A DNA stretch of 64,000 bases. Source: Candidatus Oxydemutatoraceae bacterium (GTDB taxonomy: Bacteria; Pseudomonadota; Gammaproteobacteria; Poriferisulfidales; Oxydemutatoraceae). The notes under the pieces were generated by a model. That model was not told where the DNA came from. It worked only from the letters and a program-made list of their open reading frames with translations, and made no database searches. The position numbers and the translations under genes are program-made. This document shows positions 13,530-57,844 of the stretch, piece by piece (positions within the stretch are counted from its first letter, which is position 1; each line of letters opens with the position of its first letter). The stretch is from the NCBI GenBank assembly GCA_965211995.1, contig OZ243040.1, positions 1,555,363 to 1,619,362 of the forward strand. Reading direction: 5' to 3'.

Positions 13530-13556
13530 TTTCCAAGTCCCTTGGTTAAGTTGAAT

Positions 13557-14426: not shown

Positions 14427-14632
14427 TTGCCGAGCGTTTTACACTTTATGCGCGTCCCTTTAGAGGGCTGGCATCTTTCAGATGGTTTTAGACGCTCACC
14501 TCTTCTACATCTGCTGCAAACTTTAGAGGGGGGCATTTTTTAGCCCGTTTTAGAATTTCTAAAACTTCTTCATAAACCTTCTTACGTTCAGGTTGTCGTT
14601 CAAGTTGTGAGGAGGATATCTTTATACGCCGT

Positions 14633-22437: not shown

Positions 22438-22462
22438 CGCCGTGGTTCGCTGAGGCGCCGGT

Positions 22463-23416
22463 TCAAACGCCCCCCTCTTTGGCGTTGATCGCGTCGGCGG
22501 TGCGCACGACGTTCTCAGCCATGCGCGCCGAGGCCGCGTCGATCATCTTGCCGTCGAGCGAGGCTGCGCCGCGTCCCTCGCGCGCGGCTTTGTCGAGTTC
22601 CGCGAGGATCTTGCGCGCTTTTTCGATCTCGGCGGGCGGCGGCGAAAACACCCGGTTCGCGAGTTCGATCTGCAAGGGGTGGATCGCCCATTTGCCTTCG
22701 ATGCCGAGCGCCGCGGCGCGCTTCGCCGCGAAAATGTAGCCGTCGGAGTCCCTGAAATCTCCGAACGGGCCGTCGATCGGGCGCAGGCCGCAGGCGCGGC
22801 AGGCGACGGTCATGCGGCTGAGCGCCGCGTGCCACTGATCGCCCGGGTAGTCGGGATTGAGGCCGCCGATGTTGACCGTGCGCGCACGGTTGCTCGCGGC
22901 GTAATCGGCGACGCCGAAGTGCATCGCCTCCAGGCGCGTGCCGCGCGCGGCGGCAATCGCCTCGACGTGGGCCATGCCGATTGCGGTTTCGATCAGCGCT
23001 TCCAGTCCGATGCGGTGCTCGATGCCCATCGCTTCCTCGATCTGGGTCACCATCATGTCCACCGCGTACAGATCCGCGGGCACGCCGACCTTCGGCACCA
23101 GGATTGTGTCCAGGTGTCGCCCGGCCTGCTCGACCACGTCCACCACGTCGCGGTACATATAGTGTGTGTCGAGACCGTTGATGCGCACCGACACGGTCTT
23201 GTCGGCGGCTTTCCAATCAAGGTCGTTGAGCGCCTGGATTGCGTTCTTGCGCGCCTGCGGCTTGTCGTCGGGCGCAACCGCGTCCTCAAGATCAAGAAAC
23301 ACGTAATCGGCGTCCGACGCGAGCGCCTTTTCGATCATGCCGGGGTTCGACGCCGGCACCGCGAGTTCGCTGCGCTGCACGCGGGCGGTCGCGGGTTCGT
23401 AACGTGTGTGGCTCAT
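22463..23416 (-). CDS. mcl: malyl-CoA lyase (HpcH/HpaI aldolase, citrate lyase beta-like)
   Basis: CitE/HpcH family sequence adjacent to mtkAB. Confidence 0.75.
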   Translation of the reverse strand: MSHTRYEPATARVQRSELAVPASNPGMIEKALASDADYVFLDLEDAVAPDDKPQARKNAIQALNDLDWKAADKTVSVRINGLDTHYMYRDVVDVVEQAGRHLDTILVPKVGVPADLYAVDMMVTQIEEAMGIEHRIGLEALIETAIGMAHVEAIAAARGTRLEAMHFGVADYAASNRARTVNIGGLNPDYPGDQWHAALSRMTVACRACGLRPIDGPFGDFRDSDGYIFAAKRAAALGIEGKWAIHPLQIELANRVFSPPPAEIEKARKILAELDKAAREGRGAASLDGKMIDAASARMAENVVRTADAINAKEGGV

Positions 23417-23437
23417 GGTCGTGTTGCGCGCCGGGGC

Positions 23438-24700
23438 TCAGCCGCGGCTCTTTGCGGTGGCTTTGGGGCGCCCCGGCTTTTTGGGCGCGGGCTTTTTGAC
23501 CGCTACCTTTTTGGCCTTGGACTTTTTCGCGCCGGGCGCGGTTTCGCGGAAGTATTCCTCGGCCGCGGCGGTGCCGCTGCCGGCGGCAATCTTGAGACCC
23601 GCGTCGCGCATCGCCATTTCGGTGCCCGCGAGCGCCGCGAGGATCGAGGTCTCGTTGTTGTCTCCGAGATGCCCGATGCGGAACACCTTGCCCGCGAGTT
23701 TGGAAAGCCCCGCGCCAAGCGAGATGTTGTAGCGGTGGTAGGCGATATCAATCACCTTGCGCGCGTCGCGGCTCGGCGGCACGACAATCGCCGTGACCGT
23801 GTCCGAATACCATTTCGGCTCTTTCGCGCAGGTCTTGAGACCCCACGCCCAAATCGCGCGGCGCACGCCTTCGGCGAGGCGGTGGTGGCGCTTGAACACG
23901 CTGTTGAGGCCCTCGTCGAGCAGCAGGTCGAGCGACTTTCTCAAGCCGTACAGCAGCGGGATCGAGGGGGTGTACGGAAAGAAACCGTCCTTGTTGGTGA
24001 CGATATGGTCTTCGATGTCGAGATAGCACCGTGCGCACTTTGCTTGCTTGCGAGATTGCAACGCCCTTTTGCTGAAGCATGCGAGCGCGAGTCCCGCCGG
24101 CAGCATGAAGCCCTTTTGCGAGCCGCTGATCGCGACGTCCACTTTCCAGTCGTCCATGCGGAAGTCCACGCTCGCGATTGAACTGACGCCGTCCACGTAG
24201 AGCATCGCCGGGTGCTTGACCCGATCGAGCACTTTGCGCACGCCGCGCACGTCGCTGGCGACGCCGGTCGCGGTTTCGTTCTGGCACACCATCACGCCCT
24301 TGATCTGGTGGCGGGTGTCGGCCTTGAGGCGCTTTTGGAGTCTGTCGAGCGGAAAACCCTGCCCCCACGGCGTCTCGAAAACCTCGACGTCGAGGCCGAC
24401 GCGCTGCGCGAGATCAATCCACAGGTGGCTGAACTGCCCGAAGCGCGCGCTCAGCACTTTGTCTCCCGGCGACCGCGTGTTCACCAGCGCGACCTCCCAG
24501 CCGGCGGTGCCTGAGCCGGGGAAGATGAACGATTGCCCCGTCTCGGTTTTGAAAACCCGGTTGAGATCCCTGAACAGCGGCTTGGTCAGTTTGTGCATGT
24601 CGGGGCGACGGTGATCCTCCTGCGGAACGCGCATCGCGTTGTCAACGGCCGCCGGCAGATTGGTCGGGCCCGGCACATATAAGAAATTACGTCCTGGCAT
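23438..24700 (-). CDS. sga: serine--glyoxylate aminotransferase (class V aminotransferase)
   Basis: 'MPGRNFLYVPGPTNLP' start, PLP-lysine region 'SGSQKG'; unusual Lys/Ala/Pro-rich C-terminal tail. Confidence 0.8.
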   Translation of the reverse strand: MPGRNFLYVPGPTNLPAAVDNAMRVPQEDHRRPDMHKLTKPLFRDLNRVFKTETGQSFIFPGSGTAGWEVALVNTRSPGDKVLSARFGQFSHLWIDLAQRVGLDVEVFETPWGQGFPLDRLQKRLKADTRHQIKGVMVCQNETATGVASDVRGVRKVLDRVKHPAMLYVDGVSSIASVDFRMDDWKVDVAISGSQKGFMLPAGLALACFSKRALQSRKQAKCARCYLDIEDHIVTNKDGFFPYTPSIPLLYGLRKSLDLLLDEGLNSVFKRHHRLAEGVRRAIWAWGLKTCAKEPKWYSDTVTAIVVPPSRDARKVIDIAYHRYNISLGAGLSKLAGKVFRIGHLGDNNETSILAALAGTEMAMRDAGLKIAAGSGTAAAEEYFRETAPGAKKSKAKKVAVKKPAPKKPGRPKATAKSRG

Positions 24701-25252
24701 GGTTGTTGTCCTGAAGTTCGGTTGAGTGGGCAATGGATTTCGCCGGGAAAAACCGGGCGAAGCCGGCAATTATGCCGCAAACAGCGGCTGTTTCTCAAGC
24801 GGGCGTAAGTCCGATGCAAGTCAGAAGCGTATGCCCTGCTCCGGGGCATGGCTCCCCGGGACGGGGATCAAGACGGCGCTTGCTGCCGCCCGCGGCAAAG
24901 GGATGCCATGACGCGGGAGGCTGGAACCGTGTTCGGCGGGGGGTTGACCGGCTAAGGCTGAGTGAGGCGGGGCAAAGTCGGGGCACCTCAGACCAACTGA
25001 AGCAACGGCTGCAACAGGGTGCGTGGGTGCCATTGACTGACACCTTTACCGGTGCGCGGCGTACCCGTTTGACCGCTAGAGGGAAATGGAGCGTTGCAAC
25101 GGGGTTAAGGGGGATTCCCTCGCGCCAAGAGGAAAGCGGTTTGTGACGTTCGGCAATGCCGGCATCGCCAAACGCTGAAACAGCGCCGTTCCATCCGTGG
25201 AGATATCAAGTCGGAATCTATGCGGACTTTTTTTTGCAAGTCGGTTTTTCTT

Positions 25253-25455
25253 CTACAGACCGAGGAGGCTAAAAGGAATTGGCTGTTGGCGCCTGGGTTT
25301 GGGGGGTTCGCGCGGGGGATTAGTGTCAATGCCGCCGGCTTCAAGTTCCGCCTGCTTTTGTTGCCACTCGTGAAATCCGCGCAAGTTCATTTGCGGGTTT
25401 TGGGCGGCAATTTCCTCCATGGTCAGTATTTTGGGAGGTGTTGGCTTGTTCATAA
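25253..25455 (-). CDS. small hypothetical protein (~66 aa)
   Basis: ORF 5 bp downstream of the membrane-protein gene; no recognisable motif. Confidence 0.25.
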
Positions 25456-25587
25456 GAGACTCCTGGTATGGACAGTGGACAGCCACTCTTGGATAAGCGA
25501 CCTGGACAATTCCGCCGCCAATTCTATCTGATGACGTGCGCTTGGGGGGTATTGATGCGGATGGACAACTGAGAACATACATACCTC

Positions 25588-26253
25588 CTACCGTCGGCGT
25601 ATGTAATAACCGCTATCACTGTCAAGGGGAATTTCATCCCCTTCCTGAGCATGATCGCTTTCCAAGTGCTTCCATGAAAGCCACAAGACCATAACAGTGG
25701 CCACTAGTATAGATCCTACTATCCACCACCTGTATGGGACACATCCAGGGTCAAAACACATCAGGCTGAAAACAAGCAACACCGACCAAATAACCGTGCT
25801 CAAAAGACTTACAGCAATACCAATTTTAGAAACAGAAAAGGGGGACGCTGAAAGAAGCGAATTTGATCCAGTATATTCGTGGATAGATGTCTTATATAAT
25901 TTGCCTGTAATTTCATCCTCTAAAAAGTCAATATTTTTCTCCCAAATCTCTTGCCAATACCGACTACCCTTATTAGCCAACCACCACCAAAAAGAAAGGA
26001 TCAGTCCAACAGAACTCAGAGCAACAGAGGCTACCCATAGGACCAAACCGTTTTGAGACTTTACCAAACCAGCATAAGCGACAAACGCAAGTGCAATAAA
26101 AACCCAAAAATAAGCCGACCTTTTCCAAAAAAGATCTATTTCAAACCGACGTATTTCATGTGCGTATTTAAGTGCTCTTGCCTGCATACGCTCTCTCTGG
26201 GGGTTATCCCCAAAAGCCTCGCGCAGGTACTTTTGTCTGGCAGTTTCATTCAT
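25588..26253 (-). CDS. hypothetical 4-TM membrane protein, coupled to the res gene
   Basis: 221 aa, two hydrophobic helix pairs; starts 15 bp after the res stop; low GC. Confidence 0.5.
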   Translation of the reverse strand: MNETARQKYLREAFGDNPQRERMQARALKYAHEIRRFEIDLFWKRSAYFWVFIALAFVAYAGLVKSQNGLVLWVASVALSSVGLILSFWWWLANKGSRYWQEIWEKNIDFLEDEITGKLYKTSIHEYTGSNSLLSASPFSVSKIGIAVSLLSTVIWSVLLVFSLMCFDPGCVPYRWWIVGSILVATVMVLWLSWKHLESDHAQEGDEIPLDSDSGYYIRRR

Positions 26254-26268
26254 GCGGTAAAGACCCGG

Positions 26269-28950
26269 TTATTTATAATTGGTGAAACCCTCCACCAACT
26301 CTTTAAATGATTGTGGATTATATTCGTAGAACCCTTTCTCATCCACATAAACAAAGTCATAAATAACTTCTGATTGTATTCGATTAATATCTTCACACCA
26401 TTGTTTCAACCTTTTCATTTTCAAATCCACGTCCATATCTTTTAGCCCTTTAGTTTCCACAATAAAAATCTCAGAGGGGGATTTTTTGACCAGGAAATCA
26501 GGGTAATAATTAGAAATATTCCCGTCGGCGTTCACGTAATCTATCTTGAAATGGGAAGTGGCATTTTTTGCATAGGAAATAATGTCCGCACATTCCTCTA
26601 AAAACCCCGCAAACTTCAACTCAAGGTGGCTATCCCCCACAATCTTATTGAAAACACTCTTTTTAGGAATCAAATACTCTTGCTGCTTAACGACACAGGG
26701 GCGTGTTTTACGCAACTTGATCGCATCCCGTATTTCCGCATTGCCCCGGTCTTGCACCGTTAATTCGTTGATCCTTTTTTTGAAAGTATCAATTAATGTC
26801 TTGCAGGCAACCAGTTCCGACAGATTACGCAAAGTGTTGGGATTCTCCAATTCGATTTCCTTGCCAAATAAATGAAACCTTATAAACTCTTTTACTTTTC
26901 CATAAAGCACATCATACCCGCTGAATAAACGCAGATCTTTCATGATTGTCTTTGTAAAATACCCAATGACACTGCTGTAATTAGGGACACCGGAAATATC
27001 CAGTTTCGTGATATGTGTAATTTCTCCTGTTGTGATGTCTTTAAAAACAATTTCCCGCTGCTGTTCCTTTACAAACTGACGATAAGGCGCTTTCTCACAA
27101 CCAAAAGTGCCAACATCAAGATCGTCAAGGTTCTTATACTCACGATAGATTCTAGCGGTCAGAACCGGGATCTCGATATCCAGTGCATCCATATCTTTGT
27201 TTTTGTTGTCATGGTCAATTTCAATAATGAGCGGCGTTTTTGCACTAGTGCCCTCTCCCATCGCTGCGCGTTCCAGTTCAACCCCCTCAGTTTGAATGGA
27301 CTCCACAAATTCCATAAAGGCGTCAGTCCCAACCACACTGACTTGTTCTTCCGCATCCTCATCCGGATACATCCTGCGCAAACCGCGGCCTAAGGTTTGT
27401 TCCGGCAAAATGTTGCTCTGAGCGGTATATGGCCTCAAGCCCACAATCGTCGTCACATTACGTACATCCCAACCTTCCTTAAGCACCAGCACTGAAACAA
27501 TAGCCTTATACGAGTTATCTGCACTATCAATAGCATTCGCTTGCTTTCTCAACTTTTCCAATTCGTCTTTGTTTCTACTGCTGTCTGCCTCAGAAATCTC
27601 CCCATTCTTTTTAGTGTGAATAACCAGTACGGCATCTTTCAGATCAGGGTAGGTGCTTTCTAGATATTCGGCAACGCTATCGCAATTCTTTGTGTCATCC
27701 GTCATTACAAACAAAATCGCTTTTTTATCTAGTTTCTTGTGTTCCTCATAAGTTTTTCTCCATTCAACCACCCCCAGATGCAAATAATCAGAATACTTTT
27801 CAGTATATTTAATGCTTTGCTTCTCTCTGAGTTTAGCCCTGCTGGCAGAATCGGGAAGCACGGGATGTTTAACCACATTTTGAGAAATTGCTTCGACCAA
27901 CGGGTAGTCTGAAACAGTTTGCACGAAAATCGCCCCATTATTGTGCTTGGGTGTCGCGGTGGTATCTACCTGCAAAGATAACTCGCTGCCTTTCTGCAGC
28001 AAATGATTGTGAATGTCTTCAATGCACTTAAACCAAGCGAGACTACTATCGTGTATGTGATGCGCCTCATCGTTCAAAACCACTAACTCATCTATGTCAC
28101 GAACGATAACCCCTAAATCTATCTTGGAATCCGTAGTCGCACCTGTCGGTTTTTTGCCTAGAAAATAGCCCCTCGTATCGTCATCGTCAGCCGATGGAAG
28201 AGCATCGTCGCCGGCATATATGCGATGGATATTAGTCAGAAAGACATTGCCAGCAGGACGAGTAACACGCACTTCATCCTGTATGTGCACGGTCAAGTTA
28301 AAGTCATCGTTCCAATTCCGGCCGCCCACTCCATCATCAGGCAATATCGGATCTTCCCTGAAAATTTTCGAGTCTACAAAATCCTTACGCAGTCTGTCCA
28401 AAACTATAATGTTGGGAGCAATCACAAGAAAGTTGCGGGCAAGTTCTGATTCATCCTCGTAAATCTTATGGAAATAACTCCAAGCCAAGACCAGGCTCAT
28501 AACTTTAGTTTTTCCCGTTCCTGTCGCCATCTTGACGACAAAGCGTTTCCAACTCTCATCGAACATGTTTGCGGAAACAGCGCCGGATTTGTCAAATCGA
28601 AGCATGTCGTACTTGTCTTTTATACGTGCCACGTCGTATAAATAAATGATCGTCTCAATGGCTTCCCTCTGGGCAAAGTAATACTGGAACTCCGTTGCCG
28701 TTCCATCATTTGTATTAGAAATTAAGTGCGGGGTGTTGAACCACCAATTCAAAAGGCTGCGGCTTGTCTCAGTAGCCCCCTTGTACCCGCTATCACGCCA
28801 CTTCTTAACTTGTCTCCTTAACTCCGGGACCAGCGGTGGCAACAACTTCTCAAAACTCGTCTCGCGTAACGTTTCATCTGCCGGGAGCCAGCGAACATCA
28901 GGCTCCAAAATTGCATGAGGAGAATCTGGAAAATCAGGATGGAGTGCCAT
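26269..28950 (-). CDS. res: type III restriction enzyme Res subunit (SF2 helicase plus C-terminal PD-(D/E)xK nuclease)
   Basis: Walker A 'ATGTGKT', 'LNDEAHH' DEAH box, C-terminal 'YYPDFLV...IVETKG' nuclease motif; 893 aa; low GC. Confidence 0.85.
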   Translation of the reverse strand: MALHPDFPDSPHAILEPDVRWLPADETLRETSFEKLLPPLVPELRRQVKKWRDSGYKGATETSRSLLNWWFNTPHLISNTNDGTATEFQYYFAQREAIETIIYLYDVARIKDKYDMLRFDKSGAVSANMFDESWKRFVVKMATGTGKTKVMSLVLAWSYFHKIYEDESELARNFLVIAPNIIVLDRLRKDFVDSKIFREDPILPDDGVGGRNWNDDFNLTVHIQDEVRVTRPAGNVFLTNIHRIYAGDDALPSADDDDTRGYFLGKKPTGATTDSKIDLGVIVRDIDELVVLNDEAHHIHDSSLAWFKCIEDIHNHLLQKGSELSLQVDTTATPKHNNGAIFVQTVSDYPLVEAISQNVVKHPVLPDSASRAKLREKQSIKYTEKYSDYLHLGVVEWRKTYEEHKKLDKKAILFVMTDDTKNCDSVAEYLESTYPDLKDAVLVIHTKKNGEISEADSSRNKDELEKLRKQANAIDSADNSYKAIVSVLVLKEGWDVRNVTTIVGLRPYTAQSNILPEQTLGRGLRRMYPDEDAEEQVSVVGTDAFMEFVESIQTEGVELERAAMGEGTSAKTPLIIEIDHDNKNKDMDALDIEIPVLTARIYREYKNLDDLDVGTFGCEKAPYRQFVKEQQREIVFKDITTGEITHITKLDISGVPNYSSVIGYFTKTIMKDLRLFSGYDVLYGKVKEFIRFHLFGKEIELENPNTLRNLSELVACKTLIDTFKKRINELTVQDRGNAEIRDAIKLRKTRPCVVKQQEYLIPKKSVFNKIVGDSHLELKFAGFLEECADIISYAKNATSHFKIDYVNADGNISNYYPDFLVKKSPSEIFIVETKGLKDMDVDLKMKRLKQWCEDINRIQSEVIYDFVYVDEKGFYEYNPQSFKELVEGFTNYK

Positions 28951-28965
28951 AATTATTGGGGGAAT

Positions 28966-30240
28966 TTATTCTTTCGGGTTTGGGTCTTTTTTGTCCGCAG
29001 TACTATTTTCTGTGACGTTATCTATAGCGCTTTTCATAAAATCCACTTCATCATGCCTTTTTCTCAGTGGATCTTGAAGGATTTGATTCAAAATCCCGCG
29101 CACGTAGTAACTTTTGTCTTTTGATTCTATCTTTTCCATAAATGCCATTAATGATTTTGCCAGCACTGCTTTATAAGAGTAGTCTTCAGCCAAGTTTTTA
29201 TTTTTGACATATCTGCCCGCACAAAACCAAGCACCCGCTATTAACAAAGGAATTAGAGTCAGCCTAAGTGCGGCAGTTACTACATCTGCCCCATCATCCG
29301 TTAAAGATCCCAAGATATAGAAACCCAACCCAACTGAAAATAATGTAAAAAGTAAAGCACCCGATAACCAACCCACAAAATTATTCCACTTTCTAGCTTG
29401 ACTGTACTTTTCTTGGTAGGCCGCGCTGATTCCTGCAGCGGTCGTGTACTCAAGAGCTATCTTAGATTGCTTTATCAGTTGACTAGCCTCTTCAAGAAGT
29501 TCTTCCTGTTGTTGCTTATACTTTTCTGCCTCTTGCTCCTGAGATTCTAGTTGAGCCCGCTTTTCTTCAATTTGTTGGGAAAATTCTTCAATCACTTTGA
29601 AATGAGTTTTTGCAGAAGATAATAATTGACTTATGTCTTTATTACTATCAGAAGACCTCTCGTGAATACCCGTTAATTCATCAGATTTCTGATTGAGACC
29701 ATTAAGTTTTTCTGAAAAAGAGGCAAAATTCTCCTCCGCTTGTTGTATTTTACTCTGTGCCTGTTCGGCATTTTCTTGGATGCTTTTGACTTTCTTAATA
29801 TCTTCTTCAAGTGCAGAACTCTTTGAGTGTAATTCATTGAGACGTTCTTCAATAGCCTTTTGAGATTCTGATGATCCTCTGATTCTATAACTTCGAATGA
29901 TAATTTTTAATTCATCCAACTGGTTGGCAACATTTGGGTAGTTTTTTTGATTTAACAAATTATTTATCCTATTTAAGCAAATCTGTATGTTAAGTCTTTC
30001 CTGATAGACAGACAGTTGTATAAACTTGTTATGCGCTTTCGTGATACCTCTCAAGTCCGTAATAATAGCTTGCAGCCCCGCTTTAAGGGACTGTGGGGTG
30101 TATTCCCCTTCCTGCCCATAAACACTTTTCCCATGCTCTCTCGGAGCAAAAGTTGAGAGATGTTTTTCCAACATGTCTAATTGACCACGTACGTTTTTTA
30201 TTGATTCTGTTTCCATGATTTCACACTGTAATTTGCACAA
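28966..30240 (-). CDS. coiled-coil protein with two C-terminal TM helices, inserted between mod and res
   Basis: ~290 aa of heptad-rich Q/E/K/L sequence, then TM helices 'WLSGALLFTLFSVGLGFYILGSL' and 'LTLIPLLIAGAWFCAG'; its start overlaps the mod stop. Confidence 0.55.
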   Translation of the reverse strand: MCKLQCEIMETESIKNVRGQLDMLEKHLSTFAPREHGKSVYGQEGEYTPQSLKAGLQAIITDLRGITKAHNKFIQLSVYQERLNIQICLNRINNLLNQKNYPNVANQLDELKIIIRSYRIRGSSESQKAIEERLNELHSKSSALEEDIKKVKSIQENAEQAQSKIQQAEENFASFSEKLNGLNQKSDELTGIHERSSDSNKDISQLLSSAKTHFKVIEEFSQQIEEKRAQLESQEQEAEKYKQQQEELLEEASQLIKQSKIALEYTTAAGISAAYQEKYSQARKWNNFVGWLSGALLFTLFSVGLGFYILGSLTDDGADVVTAALRLTLIPLLIAGAWFCAGRYVKNKNLAEDYSYKAVLAKSLMAFMEKIESKDKSYYVRGILNQILQDPLRKRHDEVDFMKSAIDNVTENSTADKKDPNPKE

Positions 30241-32458
30241 TTTTCATAGTGTCATTGCCAAATATATCCACTACTTTAACGGCTATCTTCCGTCGCCCGG
30301 GTTTACATTCCTTAAATATACTAGTGAGTTCTAATGAGCGATCTTTCTTTGTCCGAAATGATTGCCACTCGTTTTCAAAGACATAGTCGCCGGTCCAACG
30401 CTCTTCCCACTTGTCAGTATCTTCATCTTTAACCCTAATAATCTCACGCTTACTCTCAAAATCAAAATCCACCGCCCAATAATCAATCCAATCCGCCCAT
30501 TCTTTGGTCAGCACTTCACGCTTGACGATGCCGTCTTTCGCCTTACTCACTTTAATAATCTGCCCTTGCTCCACCACGATTTTATTTTTCCCTTTCTTCA
30601 AACTAACTTCAACATTTGCAATAGAGTCCTGCGAATAGAAAACAGAAAAATCAGTCAACTCTATAGCGACACTTTTATCCTTAATGTGAGGTTTAATTTC
30701 AATATACGACACGTCGTGGAACACCACCTGATTTTTCTCCACCGCCCGCTTGTCAAAGACTTCGGCGGGGATGTATTTCATTTCCAGGTTGATGCCTTTG
30801 CCTTTTGCTTCGTCCATGATTTGCGGGAATAGGCCCATTTCAAACTCAAAGGCGAGGATGTCGGCGCGGGTGATGTGATTTTTGCGGCACTCCAGGATAA
30901 TTTCTTCCACGAACAGGCGCGTAACCGGCAGGTTGATGGGGCCGATGGCGACCATGCGTCCGGCTTTTTTGCCGTGGAACACGCCGGACTGTTCCACCGG
31001 TTGCGCGGCGTAGGCTTTGAGGATCAGGTCCTGGTATTCCTTTGATTTGGCGGCGATCTGCGCTTGCTGCTGTTCAGGTCGCAGGCCGGGATTGACGCCG
31101 ATGTAGTGCTGGCGTTCGTATTTTCCGAGGTTGAGGATTTCAAAGGCGCGGTAATTTTTGCTTTCCTTTTTGAGTGCGCGCTGTACGCCGATCATGCGCT
31201 TGCGGGTGGTGTGGATGGCGAACTTGCCGAGGTCGGAGGCGATCCATTTGCGGCTGAGTTTTTCGGCGACGGCGGCGGTGGTGCCGGAACCACAGAAGAA
31301 GTCGGCGACGAGGTCACCTTCGTTAGAGGAGGCTTTGATGATGCGTTCTAAAAGAGCTTCGGGTTTTTGGGTTGGGTATTTCAGGTATTCTCCGCCTTGT
31401 GTGGCTCTAATGTCCATCCAAACATCACGACAGCGAACTCCCTTACCCATATAAAGTTTTCGCCCTGGAACTTTCCCCTCCTCAATCAGCAACTCGCCAT
31501 TTTCAATCCACAGCAACGCAGTTTTTTTGGGCATCCCATAACCCCTTGATGGTACTTTCTCGCCATATCCTAAATCATAAACATAGCCGCCTCCGCCTGG
31601 GTTATCTACGGGGCCTACTCGATAGCGGCCTCTTTCATCGGAGTAGCGATAAAGACTTTCGCTGGCTTTGCTGTATTCCTGAAAAATGTCATTCCAGATC
31701 ACTTTTCTTTTTCCCTTACGATAAAAAAACAAAGTTTCGTGGGACTTTATAAATTTTTTGTTTTTTGCCGAACTATCCCCGATAGCTCCCTGCCAGATAG
31801 ATTCGTTCACGAAATTCTCTTTCCCAAACACCTCATCCAAAGCCAACCGCATAAAACCATTCACCCGCCAATCACAATGCACATAAATACTCCCATCCTC
31901 CGCCAGTAAATCCCGCATCAACACCAGCCGCTCATAAATCATCGCAATAAACGAATCCGCGCCCTTGCCCCAGGTGTCGCGGTAGGCCAGTTCCTCCAGC
32001 ACGTTCGGCTTTTTGGTGAAGGTGTCGCCGCCGATTTCAATATCCATGGAAAAATCCGCGCCCACGTCAAACGGCGGATCAATGTAAATCAGTTTCAACC
32101 CGCCCTGCGCTTCAATCTCCTCGCGCAACGGCCCGTTCTTGAGGCCGGACAGGATCAACTTGTTGTCGCCCCAGATCAGTTTGTTGCTCCAGCCCTTGAG
32201 TTGCCGCCCACGCGCATCGGTGGTGAACAGATCCGCCTGTAGCGATGTATCCTCCGACTTCTCCGCGCGCGGTTCGTCCACCTGCTCAATCACCTGAAAC
32301 GGCAGCACCACGTTGCACACCTCGCTGGTCTTGCCGTTCCACACCAGTTCCACTTCCCGCTTGTCGTCAAACAACAGGAAGCGGTACTTGTCGGGCAGCG
32401 GCTTGCCGGACTCAATGAGTTTGACGACGTCGCGCTTTTCGTTGTCGGAGAGGTTCAT
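30221..32458 (-). CDS. mod: type III restriction-modification Mod subunit (N6-adenine DNA methyltransferase, beta class)
   Basis: 'IYIDPPFDVG' (motif IV) lies N-terminal to 'FFCGSGTTAAVAEKL' (motif I); start 'MNLSDNEKRD'; long low-GC C-terminal extension. Confidence 0.85.
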   Translation of the reverse strand: MNLSDNEKRDVVKLIESGKPLPDKYRFLLFDDKREVELVWNGKTSEVCNVVLPFQVIEQVDEPRAEKSEDTSLQADLFTTDARGRQLKGWSNKLIWGDNKLILSGLKNGPLREEIEAQGGLKLIYIDPPFDVGADFSMDIEIGGDTFTKKPNVLEELAYRDTWGKGADSFIAMIYERLVLMRDLLAEDGSIYVHCDWRVNGFMRLALDEVFGKENFVNESIWQGAIGDSSAKNKKFIKSHETLFFYRKGKRKVIWNDIFQEYSKASESLYRYSDERGRYRVGPVDNPGGGGYVYDLGYGEKVPSRGYGMPKKTALLWIENGELLIEEGKVPGRKLYMGKGVRCRDVWMDIRATQGGEYLKYPTQKPEALLERIIKASSNEGDLVADFFCGSGTTAAVAEKLSRKWIASDLGKFAIHTTRKRMIGVQRALKKESKNYRAFEILNLGKYERQHYIGVNPGLRPEQQQAQIAAKSKEYQDLILKAYAAQPVEQSGVFHGKKAGRMVAIGPINLPVTRLFVEEIILECRKNHITRADILAFEFEMGLFPQIMDEAKGKGINLEMKYIPAEVFDKRAVEKNQVVFHDVSYIEIKPHIKDKSVAIELTDFSVFYSQDSIANVEVSLKKGKNKIVVEQGQIIKVSKAKDGIVKREVLTKEWADWIDYWAVDFDFESKREIIRVKDEDTDKWEERWTGDYVFENEWQSFRTKKDRSLELTSIFKECKPGRRKIAVKVVDIFGNDTMKIVQITV

Positions 32459-33861
32459 GGGGAGAGGTCCGGTGCGGCGTGGCGGCCAGCAAGATAACAA
32501 TACACGCTGGCGGGAAAGTAGGCCATCTTTTGATTTTCCATGTCAACGTGCCCAAACTTGGTTCGTGTTGTGAAATAACAATCTTCCATCCCGGGATGTT
32601 TTTTGAAAAACGTCTGCAAAGACCCTCGCTTTTGCCGTTGTTCAATACCTCCGTCAGACCATTTAACTTCCAAACACCAGAAAGGATGCCCACGTTCGTC
32701 AAGGGCCACGATATCCACTTCGCCGCCTTGCCAGCGTGCGTAGTGAAATTCGTATTGGAAATGAAACAACTGAGCAAATACTGCGGTCTCTACCAATGCC
32801 CCGCTTGGTCCTTCATCCTCCGGCGGGCCAAAAAGGGCGTGGTGGATTGAGGGATTGGTGAGATACACCTTGAAGAAATTGGCGCGCTTGAACCGCCTGG
32901 CATTTTGGTCTATGCGGCGAACAGTTTTGATAAGAAATGCGGCCTCCAGATATTCCAGATAACGTTTGAGCGTGGGCTTGGACACACCGGATCTCTGCGA
33001 GAGTCCGTCCAGTGATACTTCCTGTGCGGTATTCCAGGCGAGAGCCACGAACAGAGAATTGAGTTCCTGGATGTCTTGTATGCCGTAGAGACTCGGCAGG
33101 TCGCGCAGCAACACCTTGTCAATGATGTCGCTACGGACATAACGACTCATGTCCTGCTGTATGGTTTCGGAAAAAATGATTTCCGGGTAGCCGCCGATTT
33201 TGATGTAACGGATGAAGTGATCGTTGAGTTCTTTGATATTAGCATCATTCCAATTCTCTGTCTCATCTTCCCGTGCAAACGGCACGTTGATTTCCTGTAA
33301 ATCCAGATACTCGTAGAAGGTCAGCGGCGGCAGGAAAAAATCGGTGAAGCGCCCGGCGCCGGATTCAATGCTCTTGAGTCGCAACGCCGCCGCCGCCGAA
33401 CCGGACACCACGCATTTTATGTTTGGATGCGAATCCACAAACACTTTCAGGTGGCGTTCCCAATCCCGCAGGTACTGGATTTCGTCGAGGAAGAGAAAAG
33501 CGGGCGTTGCTTTTTTTAATCCGCCGGCCTCGTGAACCCGGGCGGCAAGTTCTTCGATGGACAGATTGGAATAGAGGGGCTGGTCCAGCGACAGGTAGGC
33601 CACGGCCCGGGCGGGGGTGCCTTTGTCCAGAAGTTTCTGGATGATGTGTTGTAGCAACACAGTTTTGCCGACGCGGCGCGGCCCCATCAGCACCACGGCA
33701 CGGCGCACGTCTTCGGTTTCCACCAGTTCGGCAAAGGCCCGGATGCAGGCGCGGGGGCGCATTTTCCGATGCACTTCATCGGTCTGGTGCGATGCCGTGC
33801 TCCACCAGGGATTTTCAACGCGCATGCGCTCCAGGAGCTGCGCTTCGGGGATGGTGTCCAT
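32455..33861 (-). CDS. AAA-family ATPase with C-terminal DUF4143 (PD-(D/E)xK-like) domain
   Basis: Walker A 'GPRRVGKT', Walker B 'LFLDEIQ', C-terminal 'EVDIVALDERG...CLEVKW'; 4-bp overlap with the mod start. Confidence 0.8.
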   Translation of the reverse strand: MDTIPEAQLLERMRVENPWWSTASHQTDEVHRKMRPRACIRAFAELVETEDVRRAVVLMGPRRVGKTVLLQHIIQKLLDKGTPARAVAYLSLDQPLYSNLSIEELAARVHEAGGLKKATPAFLFLDEIQYLRDWERHLKVFVDSHPNIKCVVSGSAAAALRLKSIESGAGRFTDFFLPPLTFYEYLDLQEINVPFAREDETENWNDANIKELNDHFIRYIKIGGYPEIIFSETIQQDMSRYVRSDIIDKVLLRDLPSLYGIQDIQELNSLFVALAWNTAQEVSLDGLSQRSGVSKPTLKRYLEYLEAAFLIKTVRRIDQNARRFKRANFFKVYLTNPSIHHALFGPPEDEGPSGALVETAVFAQLFHFQYEFHYARWQGGEVDIVALDERGHPFWCLEVKWSDGGIEQRQKRGSLQTFFKKHPGMEDCYFTTRTKFGHVDMENQKMAYFPASVYCYLAGRHAAPDLSP

Positions 33862-34578: not shown

Positions 34579-34860
34579 ATGGATGAGCAGGGGGGAATTC
34601 GATGTTTGCCTATCGAAAAGGCCGAAGAAATAATCCGTGCTTATGCGGCGTACAAAAATCGAGATTCTCTTGAATTGAGTTATTCAGAACACGCGTTGGA
34701 GCGCGCAAAAGAAAGAGGTATTTCTAATTCTGATGTCTTCTATATCCTTGCTCATGGCTTCATAAATGAGGAACCACAGGAATCAAGCAGACTAGGATAT
34801 TGCAAGTACAAATATGCAGTAAATCGCCTAACTCAGGCAACCGAGAAATATGTGCGGTAG
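34579..34860 (+). CDS. DUF4258-like small toxin candidate
   Basis: 'SEHALERAKERGISNSDVFYILAHG' resembles the DUF4258 core; 93 aa; followed by an HTH gene. Confidence 0.45.
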   Translation: MDEQGGIRCLPIEKAEEIIRAYAAYKNRDSLELSYSEHALERAKERGISNSDVFYILAHGFINEEPQESSRLGYCKYKYAVNRLTQATEKYVR

Positions 34861-34923
34861 TGATTCCTGATCCCCGTAAGCCAGCCATCAAAATCGTTAC
34901 ACTCATGTGGAAGGATTTATAAA

Positions 34924-35379
34924 ATGACTCCCGAAATAGTACGCCATCACTACACCGAGTGTGGGTTGCCTAATGTATGGATTCAAGGTCTGCGCATGGA
35001 AGACGACGCCGGGGAAAAAGTGATCAGAATCCCGAATATAGGAAGCCTGCATAAGTTGATCTCAAAGACGATCGTAACCTCAAAAGGCACGCTGACCGGG
35101 CCGGAGTTGCGCTACCTGCGCACCGAGATGGGATTGACTCAAACGCAACTGGGCGAGTTGGTTCATCGCGAGCGCCTGACCGTCTCGCGCTGGGAGCGCG
35201 GGGAAACCACTTTGGAGGGCGCCACCGAGGCGTATATCCGCATACTGGCGTCCAGCAAACTGGGGCTGGAACAGGTCGATCCGGCAGAACTCAGCTGCTG
35301 GTGCAGGTTGACGCCCGACAGTAAAAAACCAATCCACATAGACGCAACGGATCCTGAAAACTACCGCCTCGCCGCTTGA
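34924..35379 (+). CDS. XRE-family HTH protein (antitoxin candidate)
   Basis: 'LTGPELRYLRTEMGLTQTQLGELVHRERLTVSRWERGE' helix-turn-helix. Confidence 0.6.
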   Translation: MTPEIVRHHYTECGLPNVWIQGLRMEDDAGEKVIRIPNIGSLHKLISKTIVTSKGTLTGPELRYLRTEMGLTQTQLGELVHRERLTVSRWERGETTLEGATEAYIRILASSKLGLEQVDPAELSCWCRLTPDSKKPIHIDATDPENYRLAA

Positions 35380-35449
35380 TCGCGGCCGCTGCGGGGCGTT
35401 GGCGGCGGACTGTCCCGCCGGAATAAACCGCGGCTTCGCTATTCCCCGC

Positions 35450-35680
35450 TCAGTCGGCTTTTGCCTTAGAGAGATTCTCTTTTTCCCACTGACGGGCGAT
35501 TTTTAGAGTGGTCCGTTCACCCACCTGCACGATGTGTCCCTTGCCCCATCCCCGCTTGCTCTTATGCTCCATCTCGCGCCGGTCTATGTCATGGGTAATG
35601 CCCACGTGGACAATTCTGTTGCCTTTCTTGAAATAGTACCTATAGGCGGTTCTATACGTCGGCATCGTTCTCATCCTCAA
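35450..35680 (-). CDS. small GIY-YIG-like protein, copy 1
   Basis: 'YRYYFKKGNRIVHVGIT.DIDRREMEH' matches the GIY-(x10)-YIG...R..EH pattern. Confidence 0.5.
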   Translation of the reverse strand: MRMRTMPTYRTAYRYYFKKGNRIVHVGITHDIDRREMEHKSKRGWGKGHIVQVGERTTLKIARQWEKENLSKAKAD

Positions 35681-35827
35681 AAGAGTTAATCAATGAGCGA
35701 GTAACACTCGCCCGCTAATTTAAGACGGACACTAAAAATTATCCACTTTGCGACACAATCGCAGTTTATGCGGGACACCTGCGGCAGGTTGTTCCACCGG
35801 AATAAGCCGTAACTGTTCTAGCCCCCG

Positions 35828-36058
35828 CTAGTCGGGGTGTGCCTTAGAGAGATTCTCTTTTTTCCACTGACGAGCGATTTTTAGAGTGGTCCGTTCACCC
35901 ACCTGCACGATGTGCCCCTTGCTGCAACCTGGCTGATTCTTATGCTCATATTCGCACTGGTCTATGTCATCAGTGATGCCCACGTGGACAACCTTGTTGC
36001 CTTTCTTAAAATAGTACCTATAGGCGGTTCTATACGTTGGCATCGTTCTCATCCTCAA
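35828..36058 (-). CDS. small GIY-YIG-like protein, copy 2
   Basis: 85% identical to copy 1. Confidence 0.5.
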   Translation of the reverse strand: MRMRTMPTYRTAYRYYFKKGNKVVHVGITDDIDQCEYEHKNQPGCSKGHIVQVGERTTLKIARQWKKENLSKAHPD

Positions 36059-36631: not shown

Positions 36632-37507
36632 TCAGTCTTTCACCACTCCCTGCATTCTCGCCGCCGTCAGCGTGTTTTCGAGCAGGCAGGCGACGGTGAC
36701 CGGGCCGGTGCCGCCCGGCATCGGCGTGATGCAGCCCGCGACCGCCGACACTTCCTCGAACGCCACGTCGCCGCGTATTCCCTCCGGCGTGTGCGTGACG
36801 CCGACGTCGAGCACCGCGGCGCCGGGTTTGACGCAGTCGGCGGTGATCAGCCCGGGCGCGCCGGTGGCGGCGACCAGAATATCGGCCGTGCGGCAGGTCT
36901 CGCTCAGCGCCGGCGTGCGCGAGTGGCACAGCGTAGGCGTTACATCCAACCCCTTGCGCGCCATCAACAACACCTGCGGCAGTCCGACCAGGTACGAGCG
37001 TCCGACAATGACCGCACGCCGGCCCGAGGTCGGGATCTCGTAGTGTTCGAGTATGCGCATCACGCCGAGCGGCGTGCACGGCACGAGTCCGGGTTCGCCG
37101 CACACCAGCGCGCCGAGGTTGGCGCGGGTCAGTCCGTCCACGTCTTTCGCCGTCGGCAGAAGTTCTATCGCGGCGCGGGTATCAAGCCCCTCGGGCAGCG
37201 GCAGTTGCAGCAGGATGCCCTGCACCGCCGCGTCGTTCGCAAGTTCGGTGAGTTTTTGCCCGAGTTGCGCCTGGGTGGTGCCGGCCGGCATTTCGACCAG
37301 CAGCGGGTTGAGTCCGGCGGCGGCGGCGCGCTTGAGTTTCAGGTTGACGTAGAGTTTGCCCGGCGCGTTTTCGCCGACCAGCACGGTCGCGAGCGTGATC
37401 GGCGGGCTGCCCGCCTGCTCGATCTGCGCGGCGACGCGCGCCTGGATCGCGTCGGCGACCGCCTTGCCGTCAAGGATCTGCGCGCCCTGCGAGGCCGGAG
37501 CCGTCAT
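36632..37507 (-). CDS. folD: bifunctional methylenetetrahydrofolate dehydrogenase/cyclohydrolase
   Basis: 291 aa, classic FolD sequence ('ILDGKAVA...', 'VGRS..VG.P'). Confidence 0.9.
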   Translation of the reverse strand: MTAPASQGAQILDGKAVADAIQARVAAQIEQAGSPPITLATVLVGENAPGKLYVNLKLKRAAAAGLNPLLVEMPAGTTQAQLGQKLTELANDAAVQGILLQLPLPEGLDTRAAIELLPTAKDVDGLTRANLGALVCGEPGLVPCTPLGVMRILEHYEIPTSGRRAVIVGRSYLVGLPQVLLMARKGLDVTPTLCHSRTPALSETCRTADILVAATGAPGLITADCVKPGAAVLDVGVTHTPEGIRGDVAFEEVSAVAGCITPMPGGTGPVTVACLLENTLTAARMQGVVKD

Positions 37508-37526
37508 TGTCAGTTCGGGCGGCGCC

Positions 37527-54937: not shown

Positions 54938-55029
54938 GTGGTTACCTCTTGTTTATTTGGCAACGTTGCCGCTCAAATACTCCAAAGTCTCTTTCACTCT
55001 GTTCACCGCTATGCCGAACAATTTGATCT

Positions 55030-55763: not shown

Positions 55764-55832
55764 TAAATTAATTCATAGGCAGAAATAAAATTCACTAGTA
55801 TCATTGCAATTATTATCAAACGAGTAACCAAA

Positions 55833-57842: not shown

Positions 57843-57844
57843 TC

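What the first reader, a model, noticed from the sequence alone, without database searches (positions are those of the whole stretch)
28966..30240. Coiled-coil plus two-TM protein embedded between mod and res
About 290 residues of uninterrupted heptad-like Q/E/K/L-rich sequence are followed by two strongly hydrophobic helices and a short polar tail. There is no enzymatic motif. Its position inside an R-M operon is atypical. The architecture is reminiscent of membrane-disrupting effectors or sensor proteins of abortive-infection systems.
Basis: inference. Interest (0 to 1): 0.6.

Follow-up and report, generated by a model that had tools for sequence, protein, structure and literature searches.

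The report
Unnamed membrane-stalk protein inside restriction operon
A gene wedged between the two genes of a DNA-restriction system encodes a member of an undescribed protein family (a head on a long coiled-coil stalk, anchored in the membrane by two helices); it is an optional passenger that sits where related operons carry known anti-virus genes, so it is probably a new anti-virus gene itself, though its function has never been tested.

Summary
The gene is real: window 28966-30216 on the minus strand, 416 aa, starting at the ATG at 30216 rather than the TTG at 30240. It lies 4 nt after a type III mod gene and 15 nt before res.

- a roughly 110-aa helical head;
- about 160 aa of phase-coherent heptad coiled coil, not 290;
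- two transmembrane helices;
- an 80-aa C-terminal region that is the most conserved part of the family, not a short polar tail.

No Pfam, NCBIfam or PADLOC model matches it, and no solved structure resembles it. The family comprises 211 clusters at E<=1e-30, all unnamed.

In 79 genomes, homologues are often the gene directly downstream of methylase or specificity genes of type I, III and IIL restriction systems (21 of 74 upstream neighbours, all on the same strand). About 60% of loci show no restriction gene nearby.

In 80 close relatives of this same type III operon the gene is never present. About 43 have mod and res overlapping. Another 27 carry other cargo in that slot, mostly known or candidate defence genes.

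Verdict: this is an accessory cargo gene, and most likely a self-contained, membrane-acting antiphage module. The mechanism is inferred, not shown. Interest is moderate.

The parts
28966..30216 (-). Gene T: a 416-aa protein of an undescribed family. ATG at 30216, TAA stop at 28968-28966. The ORF-finder's TTG at 30240 is probably not the start.
   Evidence: ORF list. Sequence. All homologues start at this Met, and the identical database protein is 416 aa. 211 family clusters at E<=1e-30.
29887..30216 (-). N-terminal helical head, residues 1-110. Conserved motifs are EYT..SLKAG, ER and LDxLKxxxR. Predicted cytoplasmic.
   Evidence: AF2 helices 4-22, 41-60, 62-68, 71-89 and 93-108 at pLDDT about 90. 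Nearly invariant E38, Y39, E73, R74, K104, R108. 30% mean pairwise identity.
29395..29871 (-). Coiled-coil stalk, residues 116-274: one continuous heptad register with no proline.
   Evidence: AF2 single helix 116-274. 3.5-residue periodicity power 137 against 16.6 +/- 10.8 in shuffles, 0 of 2000 reaching it. The two commonest length classes in the family are 153 and 160 aa.
29299..29388 (-). Transmembrane helix 1, residues 277-306. The hydrophobic core is about 279-302. W283 is invariant and G298 nearly so.
   Evidence: Kyte-Doolittle peak at 289-297. Family-mean hydropathy peak at 286-299. AF2 helix. Alignment.
29212..29283 (-). Transmembrane helix 2, residues 312-335, with nearly invariant R318 and the motif AWFCAxQY (F331 invariant). 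It follows a short, acidic, unconserved outer loop (303-311).
   Evidence: Kyte-Doolittle peak at 318-325. Conservation 47% for TM2 and 12% for the loop. K/R-rich flanks on both cytoplasmic sides imply N-in/C-in topology (positive-inside rule).
29047..29211 (-). Conserved cytoplasmic juxtamembrane module, residues 336-390 (KNxxEDYxYKxVLAKSxxAF ... DPLRKRHD). This is the most conserved part of the family. Together with the pre-TM1 helix (ALxYTTAxGISAAF, residues 246-275) it defines the family signature.
   Evidence: 58% and 52% mean pairwise identity respectively. Invariant columns. AF2 model of the isolated module: pLDDT 80, pTM 0.62.
30221..32458 (-). Type III mod (N6_N4 DNA methyltransferase), directly upstream. 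Its stop codon lies 4 nt before the ATG of T.
   Evidence: Pfam N6_N4_Mtase 5e-42 and PADLOC MTase_III 7e-116. Homologues align from residue 15-17, which implies an ATG start at 32458.
26269..28950 (-). Type III res (ResIII helicase plus C-terminal endonuclease), 15 nt downstream of T.
   Evidence: Pfam ResIII 1e-14 and RE_endonuc; PADLOC REase_III 3e-22. 80 metagenomic homologues at 61-75% identity.
32455..33861 (-). AAA_14/DUF4143 ATPase (PADLOC candidate PDC-S01). It is the first gene of the same tightly packed gene string, and its stop overlaps the mod start (ATGA).
   Evidence: The same ATPase-mod pairing is seen in L170 and L171.
25253..26253 (-). 8xMP-family membrane protein (25588-26253) and a 109-aa ORF (25253-25582), trailing res by 15 nt and 5 nt. 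These are separate cargo, not a partner of T.
   Evidence: Pfam PF24838 5e-34. No homologue in the 79 T loci or the 80 related R-M loci. No profile similarity to the T C-terminal module.

Best explanation
Gene T is not a subunit of the type III enzyme. It is a horizontally moving accessory cargo gene that has landed in the mod-res junction, a slot that this R-M family uses for defence cargo.

It encodes an inner-membrane protein with both ends in the cytoplasm:
- a roughly 110-aa helical head;
- a roughly 160-residue, single-register coiled-coil stalk, presumably a parallel homo-oligomer about 23 nm long, that runs straight into TM1;
- a tight two-helix membrane hairpin;
- a highly conserved juxtamembrane helical module.

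The most likely function is a self-contained, single-gene antiphage module of the abortive-infection type. In this model the fast-evolving head and stalk detect an infection cue in the cytoplasm. The change is passed down the stalk, and the conserved 2-TM/juxtamembrane module re-packs or oligomerises to leak ions and collapse membrane potential. Co-transcription with the methylase half of R-M systems would give a second layer behind restriction.

Shown here: gene reality, architecture, family, accessory status, and defence-slot context. Inferred: defence function, the trigger, and membrane permeabilisation.
For: **Accessory status.** None of 80 loci with the same Res (61-75% identity) has T. 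About 43 have mod and res overlapping, and 27 hold other inserts of 0.3-3.8 kb.

**The slot holds defence cargo.** The inserts match PDC-S22/KilA-N (6), PDC-M19A/DUF488 (3), RmrA/CapP-like M78+DUF4411 (3), IetA/IetS (2), MNT-HEPN, AlbA_2, AAA_15/21 and nSTAND3. In L171, T heads a stack of five cargo modules between mod and res.

**T is compositionally foreign within the operon.** GC3 is 34% for T, against 61% for mod, 47% for res and 81-86% for the host.

**T diverges faster than its neighbours.** Window versus L002: Mod is 70% identical, Res 69%, T 39%.

**Family context in 79 genomes.**
- R-M genes occupy 21 of 74 -1 positions, 9 of 72 at -2 and 10 of 66 at -3, but only 1-2 at each downstream position. 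All but one of them are on the same strand, and most -1 gaps are -4 to +24 nt.
- By Pfam, the -1 neighbours include Methylase_S (12), N6_N4_Mtase (3), ResIII (3), MmeI (2), Type ISP, Mrr, GmrSD and ThsA.
- The R-M type switches repeatedly across the family tree.

**Autonomy.** There is no conserved partner gene. 51 of 79 loci have no labelled R-M gene within +/-6 genes. Other contexts include an ICE and a site next to Cas13a and an AAA_15/21 pair.

**Two-module design.** The C-terminal module is conserved (47-58% identity) while head and stalk are variable (23-30%). P0005 and P0007 are 96% and 83% identical in head and stalk but only 55% in the C-module, which points to module shuffling.

**Conserved polar or helix-shaping residues in and at the hairpin** (W283, G298, R318, F331, Y336) argue against a passive anchor.

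**Precedents.** Genes embedded in R-M, BREX or DISARM systems are mostly defence genes and 96.7% are co-oriented (10.1101/2024.01.29.577857). TgvAB sits inside a type I operon (PMC11411939).
Against: - There is no functional data of any kind.
- There is no homology to any known effector. The PADLOC, Pfam and NCBIfam hits are coiled-coil noise. The best PDB fold matches have E>=0.24.
- The only hints of a pore or holin-like module are sub-threshold. Phage_holin_3_6 scores 17.5 bits against a 28.4-bit cut-off, in 2 of 30 members. SLATT-annotated viral models match at Foldseek E 0.1-0.7.
- A 23-nm rigid stalk is not a feature of known 2-TM suicide effectors and would also suit a scaffold.
- Guilt by embedding is probabilistic: Payne et al. 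leave more than half of embedded genes unassigned.
- My neighbour calls rest on a crude ORF caller and on HMMs seeded from 12 proteins. Pfam counts for neighbours were obtained only in aggregate.
Confidence: 0.45

Rival explanations
1. R-M guard (anti-anti-restriction). T is held inactive by the methylase/specificity half of the adjacent R-M complex, or it watches for the DNA-mimic proteins that phages use against type I and III enzymes. When restriction is blocked it kills or arrests the cell through its membrane module. This would work like PrrC with EcoprrI, or RonA with HsdMS in Ronin.
For: - T lies immediately 3' of hsdS, mod or MmeI-type methylase genes, co-oriented and usually within 25 nt. 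PrrC and RonA hold the same kind of position.
- RonA is likewise a membrane-helix protein, toxic alone and silenced by HsdMS. [quoted passage not shown]
- The partner systems (type I, III, IIL) are N6-adenine methylase-based enzymes, the kind targeted by DNA mimics.
- The head and stalk evolve fast.
Against: - About 60% of loci have no R-M gene within six genes.
- Partner types are structurally unrelated at the subunit level (HsdS, Mod, MmeI, Type ISP, and even Mrr, GmrSD and ThsA), so a specific protein-protein hold is hard to picture.
- T stays intact where mod is reduced to a remnant or cut by an IS (L001, L081).
- There is no sequence or size similarity to PrrC or RonA.
Confidence: 0.2
2. 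A non-lethal membrane scaffold or gatekeeper. The stalk and head tether restriction enzymes or incoming DNA at the inner membrane where phage DNA enters, or block injection as in superinfection exclusion. The 2-TM hairpin would be an anchor rather than a pore.
For: - The architecture (2-TM hairpin plus a long cytoplasmic coiled coil with a distal head) resembles that of anchors and scaffolds. Weak fold matches include IncA, Vipp1/PspA and chemoreceptor bundles.
- Stalk length is tightly constrained to discrete classes; the two commonest, 153 and 160 aa, differ by one heptad. That suits a spacer or ruler.
- Zorya's ZorA is a precedent (from my own knowledge, not tested here) for a membrane complex whose long cytoplasmic coiled-coil tail acts with DNA-targeting effectors.
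- A SieB-family gene is a +1 neighbour in one locus.
Against: - The strongest conservation is in TM2 and the juxtamembrane helices, not in the head. A mere anchor would not need that.
- The outer loop is 5-20 aa and unconserved, so it cannot engage phage parts in the periplasm.
- There is no fixed partner to tether.
- The R-M family works without T in 80 of 80 relatives.
Confidence: 0.15
3. A passenger with no role in defence, for example a mobile-element maintenance, stress or envelope protein that simply rides in a recombination hot spot.
For: - Many loci are flanked by housekeeping genes.
- Some copies lie on an ICE, beside an inovirus-like prophage on a Vibrio plasmid, or on viral contigs.
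- Several copies are split or truncated (L034, L048, L056, L060, L064, L066, L074).
- Payne et al. could not assign more than half of embedded genes.
Against: - R-M genes peak sharply at -1 on the same strand.
- The co-cargo in the same slot is overwhelmingly defence-related.
- No transposase or integrase is consistently linked to it.
- It is very rare in sequenced phages (1 of 50,697 records) and plasmids (3 of 72,556).
Confidence: 0.15

Closest known systems
Defence genes 'embedded' in R-M/BREX/DISARM/Hma operons (Payne et al. 2024, HEC and PDC candidates; TgvAB in the Vibrio cholerae type I operon)
   Same: - T is co-oriented, tightly spaced and nested between the modification and restriction genes.
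- It is optional: absent from close relatives of the same operon.
- It shares the slot with recognised embedded cargo (PDC-S22, PDC-M19A, IetAS, MNT-HEPN).
   Different: - T matches none of the PADLOC v2 PDC or HEC models.
- Payne's survey covered type I, BREX, DISARM and Hma systems, not type III.
- T has not been tested experimentally.
Ronin (RonA with HsdMS) and PrrC/EcoprrI: R-M-linked cell-death effectors released when restriction is inhibited
   Same: - T is linked to the methylase/specificity genes of an R-M system.
- RonA is a membrane-helix protein thought to disrupt the inner membrane.
- The layered logic is the same: restriction first, suicide second.
   Different: [quoted passage not shown]
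- PrrC is a soluble ATPase-anticodon nuclease.
- T is 416 aa with a head, stalk and 2-TM module, shows no sequence similarity to either, and occurs often without any R-M neighbour.
Two-TM suicide effector modules of conflict systems (SLATT domains, CBASS/Pycsar TM effectors, class II holins)
   Same: - An N-in/C-in helical hairpin with a short outer loop and conserved juxtamembrane helices.
- A variable N-terminal sensor part fused to a conserved membrane part.
- Weak Foldseek matches to three SLATT-annotated viral proteins (E 0.1-0.7).
   Different: - No SLATT or holin Pfam model is matched at or above threshold.
- There is no nucleotide-sensing domain and no partner cyclase.
- The 160-residue coiled-coil stalk has no counterpart in those families.
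Zorya ZorA (membrane complex with a long cytoplasmic coiled-coil tail)
   Same: A membrane-embedded part continuous with a very long cytoplasmic coiled coil, in a DNA-targeting defence context. This is an architectural analogy drawn from my own knowledge.
   Different: - There is no MotA-like 4-TM core and no ZorB partner.
- No PADLOC Zorya hit.
- In T the stalk is N-terminal to the membrane part.

Membership tests
Integral subunit of this type III R-M enzyme family | Present in the operon wherever the Mod/Res pair of this family is present | tested here: not met
   0 of 80 loci with Res at 61-75% identity encode T. About 43 have the mod stop overlapping the res start.
Embedded defence candidate (guilt-by-embedding criteria of Payne et al. 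2024) | Nested inside a multi-gene defence system, on the same strand, and not a mobilome or housekeeping gene | tested here: met
   T lies between mod and res with gaps of 4 and 15 nt. Homologues are co-oriented with the -1 R-M gene in 21 of 21 cases. No transposase, integrase or metabolic domain.
Embedded defence candidate (guilt-by-embedding criteria of Payne et al. 2024) | Match to an existing PADLOC PDC/HEC model | tested here: not met
   Only coiled-coil noise: JetC and LmuB at E>=2e-8 over the stalk, and PDC-M09A at E=0.025.
Embedded defence candidate (guilt-by-embedding criteria of Payne et al. 2024) | Demonstrated protection against phage | not testable with these tools
   Needs plaque assays.
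SLATT (SMODS and SLOG-associating 2TM effector) domains | Significant match to a Pfam SLATT model | tested here: not met
   No SLATT family appears among the hits listed at E<=0.1 for T. None is among the 25 most-matched of the 38 families hit at E<=0.01 by 49 homologues, nor among the 25 most-matched of 46 hit at E<=10 by 30 isolated C-modules.
SLATT (SMODS and SLOG-associating 2TM effector) domains | Same fold as SLATT proteins | tested here: inconclusive
   Three SLATT-annotated BFVD models match at E 0.1-0.7; one has rmsd 3.9 A over 132 columns. No solved SLATT structure was returned by the PDB searches.
Holins (Phage_holin_3_6 / Holin-X) | Pfam match above the gathering score | tested here: not met
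   17.5 bits against a 28.4-bit cut-off, in only 2 of 30 family members.
PrrC/RloC anticodon nucleases | ABC-type ATPase domain plus a C-terminal nuclease domain | tested here: not met
   No NTPase or nuclease domain in T. Only the genomic position is shared.
Ronin RonA | [quoted passage not shown] | tested here: not met
   T is 416 aa with two transmembrane helices. It is linked to several R-M types or to none. The RonA description comes from 10.1101/2023.04.06.535777. The RonA sequence itself was not available for comparison.
Zorya ZorA | MotA-like TM core with a ZorB partner; match to PADLOC Zor models | tested here: not met
   No Zor hit in PADLOC. No conserved neighbour.

The most novel reading that the evidence does not exclude
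T defines a new class of general R-M guard: a membrane-anchored stalk protein that monitors the methylase/specificity half of unrelated R-M types (I, III, IIL), or the anti-restriction proteins aimed at them. It would convert failure of restriction into membrane depolarisation, and would be the first such guard known to work across R-M classes.
Probability: 0.15. Interest if true: 0.75.

Novelty: new variant of a known kind. Interest (0 to 1): 0.5.

Why it matters
If T is a defence gene, it adds an unrecognised family to the prokaryotic immune repertoire. The family has 211 clusters at 50% identity at E<=1e-30. It spans Gammaproteobacteria, Bacteroidota, a Leptonemataceae spirochaete, Nitrospirales, Gracilibacteria, Campylobacteraceae and a cyanobacterium (Calothrix). 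Its architecture (head, 23-nm stalk, 2-TM module) is not seen in known effectors.

The analysis also shows that the mod-res junction of one type III R-M family is a cargo slot, holding up to five stacked defence modules. This extends 'guilt by embedding' from type I, BREX and DISARM to type III systems and provides a ready list of further candidates.

It is not a surprise in kind. Hundreds of embedded candidates already exist, and the function here is untested.

Tried and rejected

- Exact look-up of P0001's contig: not on record.
- Cluster look-up for names: none.
- Literature searches for '8xMP' and 'octameric membrane protein' found nothing relevant.
- A search for type III R-M plus transmembrane plus coiled-coil found no description of this family.

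**Searches that gave nothing usable**
- PDB fold searches with the whole model and with the isolated C-module: nothing below E 0.24, only generic helical bundles.
- PDB sequence profile search: nothing.
- Promoter and terminator scans of the operon were at shuffle background and say nothing.
- No tRNA in the window to mark an integration site.

**Ideas rejected**
- 8xMP as a partner or paralogue of T: it is absent from all T loci and all related R-M loci, and hhalign gives probability 1.5%.
- A conserved small downstream ORF as an immunity partner: the +1 ORFs do not cluster.
- T as type III-specific.

**Search that returned only fragments**
- A word-indexed search with the C-module alone returned only fragments and 'hypothetical' entries, with no alternative domain architectures.
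Full report
**1. What is at the coordinates**

The window comes from a genome of about 65% G+C. Serine-cycle-type genes flank a low-GC island at about 25.2-36.6 kb: class-V aminotransferase, HpcH/HpaI-type lyase and FolD.

On the minus strand the island carries a tightly packed string of genes:
- AAA_14/DUF4143 ATPase (32455-33861; PADLOC PDC-S01);
- type III mod (30221-32458);
- the finding, here called T (28966-30216);
- type III res (26269-28950);
- an 8xMP-family membrane protein (25588-26253);
- a 109-aa ORF (25253-25582).

The ATPase stop overlaps the mod start (ATGA). T starts 4 nt after the mod stop, res starts 15 nt after the T stop, and the last two genes follow at 15 and 5 nt (for the T junctions; the rest follows from the ORF coordinates).

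All homologues and the identical database protein begin at the ATG at 30216, giving 416 aa.

**2. Architecture**

The AlphaFold2 model, built from a 49-sequence alignment, has mean pLDDT 79. It shows:
- a multi-helix head (residues 1-108, pLDDT about 90);
- one continuous helix at 116-274;
- helix 277-306 (TM1);
- helix 312-360 (TM2 plus a cytoplasmic extension);
- helix 365-380;
- a disordered tail (387-416).

Residues 116-274 contain no proline. They show a single sharp hydrophobic periodicity at exactly 3.5 residues, with power 137 against 16.6 +/- 10.8 in shuffles and 0 of 2000 shuffles reaching it. This is a canonical, uninterrupted heptad register about 23 nm long if extended.

Kyte-Doolittle peaks above 1.6 lie at 289-297 and 318-325, and both persist in the family-averaged profile. 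Basic residues flank both cytoplasmic ends. The loop is short and acidic (TDDGAD), which implies N-in/C-in topology by the positive-inside rule (an inference).

The rod is about 160 aa. The 55 residues after TM2 are the best-conserved part of the protein.

**3. The family**

No true hit appears in Pfam, NCBIfam or PADLOC for T, for 49 homologues or for 30 isolated C-modules. The hits are only coiled-coil and transmembrane noise.

A word-indexed search found 51 clusters at 28-58% identity; none has a name other than 'hypothetical protein'. An exhaustive HMM search with the C-terminal module against 1.84 billion representatives gave 211 proteins at E<=1e-30, 342 at E<=1e-10 and 1701 at E<=1e-3. 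Most of the top 150 share the 410-460-aa architecture, with the module at about 250-415; the rest are shorter, probably truncated, sequences.

A scan of one genome per species found 79 loci. These lie in Gammaproteobacteria, Bacteroidota, a Leptonemataceae spirochaete, Nitrospirales, Gracilibacteria, Campylobacteraceae and a cyanobacterium (Calothrix).

Mean pairwise identity by region:

| Region | Identity |
|---|---|
| Post-TM module | 58% |
| Pre-TM helix | 52% |
| TM2 | 47% |
| TM1 | 32% |
| Head | 30% |
| Stalk | 23% |
| Tail | 17% |
| Outer loop | 12% |

Other family features:
- Stalk lengths fall into discrete classes, and the two commonest (153 and 160 aa) differ by one heptad.
- Some pairs are mosaics. 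P0005 and P0007 are 96% and 83% identical in head and stalk but 55% in the C-module. The two halves therefore behave as separable modules.
- Fold searches found nothing significant in the PDB, with best E 0.24 for both the whole model and the isolated module.
- In the viral model library, one 415-aa unnamed protein matched at E 5e-5. Three SLATT-annotated proteins matched weakly at E 0.1-0.7.

**4. Genomic context of the family**

I called ORFs heuristically in the 79 loci, clustered neighbours and labelled R-M subunits with iterated HMMs.

R-M-labelled genes by position relative to T:

| Position | R-M genes / genes present |
|---|---|
| -1 | 21 of 74 |
| -2 | 9 of 72 |
| -3 | 10 of 66 |
| each downstream position | 1-2 |

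All but one of these are on the same strand as T. Most of the 21 -1 cases have gaps of -4 to +24 nt.

An aggregated Pfam scan of the -1 neighbours found Methylase_S (12), N6_N4_Mtase (3), ResIII (3), MmeI (2), and Type ISP, Mrr, GmrSD and ThsA (1 each). The +1 neighbours are heterogeneous: ResIII, AlbA_2, Abi_2, RhuM, SieB, a Pycsar-type TIR and others. No partner gene is conserved.

A neighbour-joining tree shows the associated R-M type switching several times.

Fifty-one loci have no labelled R-M gene within six genes. Their neighbours mix housekeeping genes with Fic, AbiEii-type ATPases, HNH nucleases and integrases.

Pfam-annotated contigs for individual homologues agree with this picture. 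In L171 the order is mod, T, an AAA_15/21/23 ATPase, AlbA_2, MNT-HEPN, M78+DUF4411, res. Other copies sit beside Cas13a or on an ICE.

The family is very rare in sequenced phages (1 record) and plasmids (3 Vibrio megaplasmids, next to an inovirus-like prophage and DarT).

**5. Is T part of the enzyme?**

I fetched 80 metagenomic loci encoding Res at 61-75% identity. None encodes T. In about 43 the mod stop overlaps the res start (TGATG or TAATG). In 27 the junction holds 0.3-3.8 kb of other genes, nearly all co-oriented.

Those inserts match PDC-S22/KilA-N (6), PDC-M19A/DUF488 (3), RmrA/CapP-like M78 with DUF4411 (3), IetA/IetS (2), MNT-HEPN, AlbA_2, AAA_15/21, trypsin-like proteases and nSTAND3.

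T is thus one rare occupant of a defence-cargo slot. Two further points support separate acquisition:
- T has the lowest GC in the operon. GC3 is 34% for T, against 61% for mod, 47% for res and 81-86% for host genes.
- Between the window and L002, Mod and Res are about 70% identical while T is 39%.

**6. Interpretation**

Shown:
- T is a real, conserved and previously undescribed membrane protein family.
- It is an accessory gene rather than an R-M subunit.
- It has a strong, position-specific, multi-type association with the methylase side of R-M operons, and with defence cargo generally.

Inferred:
- *Defence function.* This follows the guilt-by-embedding logic validated by Payne et al. (10.1101/2024.01.29.577857) and by TgvAB (PMC11411939).
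- *Action through the membrane.* The conserved TM2/juxtamembrane module contrasts with the variable cytoplasmic head and stalk. This suggests a sensor-stalk-effector design, with the effector acting at the membrane as in other 2-TM abortive-infection modules.

Rivals:
- *A Ronin/PrrC-style guard of R-M* (10.1101/2023.04.06.535777). This is attractive because of T's position. It is weakened by the diversity of partners and by the many orphan loci.
- *A non-lethal tether or gatekeeper.* The rigid, length-constrained stalk favours this. The conservation pattern and the lack of a fixed partner count against it.
- *A non-defence passenger.* This cannot be excluded.

**7. Limits**

- The ORF caller is crude. 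It uses the longest ORFs under table 11 and so splits genes in Gracilibacteria.
- R-M labels come from HMMs seeded with a dozen proteins.
- Pfam and PADLOC neighbour counts are aggregates and cannot be mapped to individual loci.
- The genome scan depended on the motif N-x-x-E-D-Y-x-Y-K.
- No random-gene control could be run. Enrichment is argued from the sharp positional asymmetry rather than from a background rate.
- AlphaFold gives a monomer only, so the oligomeric state is unknown.

**8. Verdict**

T is a new variant of a known kind (defence cargo embedded in R-M operons, with a predicted membrane-acting module). It is not categorically new. Interest is moderate at 0.5: a clean, testable candidate, with the useful by-product that the mod-res junction of a type III family acts as a cargo slot.

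Noticed in passing
window 25253-26253 (-): An 8xMP-family membrane protein (PF24838, E 5e-34) and a 109-aa ORF trail res by 15 and 5 nt on the same strand. Neither occurs in the 80 related type III loci or the 79 T loci, and there are no PADLOC or PDB hits. This looks like a second, independent cargo at the 3' end of the operon.
   Followed up: partly
window 32455-33861 (-); L170 11652-13067; L171 2928-4337: An AAA_14/DUF4143 ATPase (PADLOC candidate PDC-S01) is translationally coupled to mod through an ATGA overlap. The same ATPase-mod pairing recurs in two related genomes.
   Followed up: partly
L090-L169, the mod-res junction: In this type III R-M family the mod-res junction is a cargo slot. 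It is empty in about 43 loci, with overlapping stop and start codons. It is occupied in 27 loci by KilA-N/PDC-S22, DUF488/PDC-M19A, M78+DUF4411, IetAS, MNT-HEPN, AlbA_2 and AAA_15/21 ATPases. L171 stacks five cargo modules there.
   Followed up: yes
P0005 vs P0007 (family members); alignment A1: The head and stalk are 96% and 83% identical but the C-terminal membrane module only 55%. This reverses the family trend and suggests recombination between the two halves.
   Followed up: partly
window 28966-33861: The operon is a compositional mosaic. GC3 is 34% for T, 47% for res, 61% for mod and 63% for the ATPase, against 81-86% for flanking host genes.
   Followed up: yes
window 34579-36058: A DUF4258 + HTH (toxin-antitoxin-like) pair lies at 34579-35379. 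Two highly similar 76-aa ORFs with no Pfam match lie at 35450-35680 and 35828-36058, at the other end of the island.
   Followed up: partly
window 12567-14931 (-): A second low-GC islet (42-52% GC) encodes an Mrr_cat restriction endonuclease, an Nmad3 (nucleotide-modification-associated) protein and a 147-aa ORF with no family.
   Followed up: partly
window 54113-58537: A third low-GC islet holds an LCM-type methyltransferase, an IS1595 transposase fragment, and a co-oriented pair of 669 and 230 aa with no Pfam match.
   Followed up: partly
L082 9411-9482; L001 9787-9993; L081 7835-7993: Fragments of the mod 3' end flank T in some relatives. A 24-codon copy lies downstream of T in L082. Only the last 53-69 mod codons remain upstream of T in L001 and L081. 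This may mark how the cassette moves or how mod decays.
   Followed up: no
L088 7281-8669 (Vibrio plasmid NZ_CP046164.1); L089 5287-6537 (Microcystis phage Mwe-JY31): Distant relatives of the C-terminal module (28-35% identity) are annotated 'hypothetical'. One sits next to an inovirus-like prophage and a DarT gene on a megaplasmid. The other is in a record deposited as a 22-kb phage genome.
   Followed up: partly
window 21271-24769 and 36632-38456: The defence island interrupts a cluster of one-carbon/serine-cycle-type genes: succinyl-CoA/malate thiokinase-like, HpcH/HpaI lyase, class-V aminotransferase and FolD. No tRNA, integrase or flanking repeat was found to explain the insertion.
   Followed up: no
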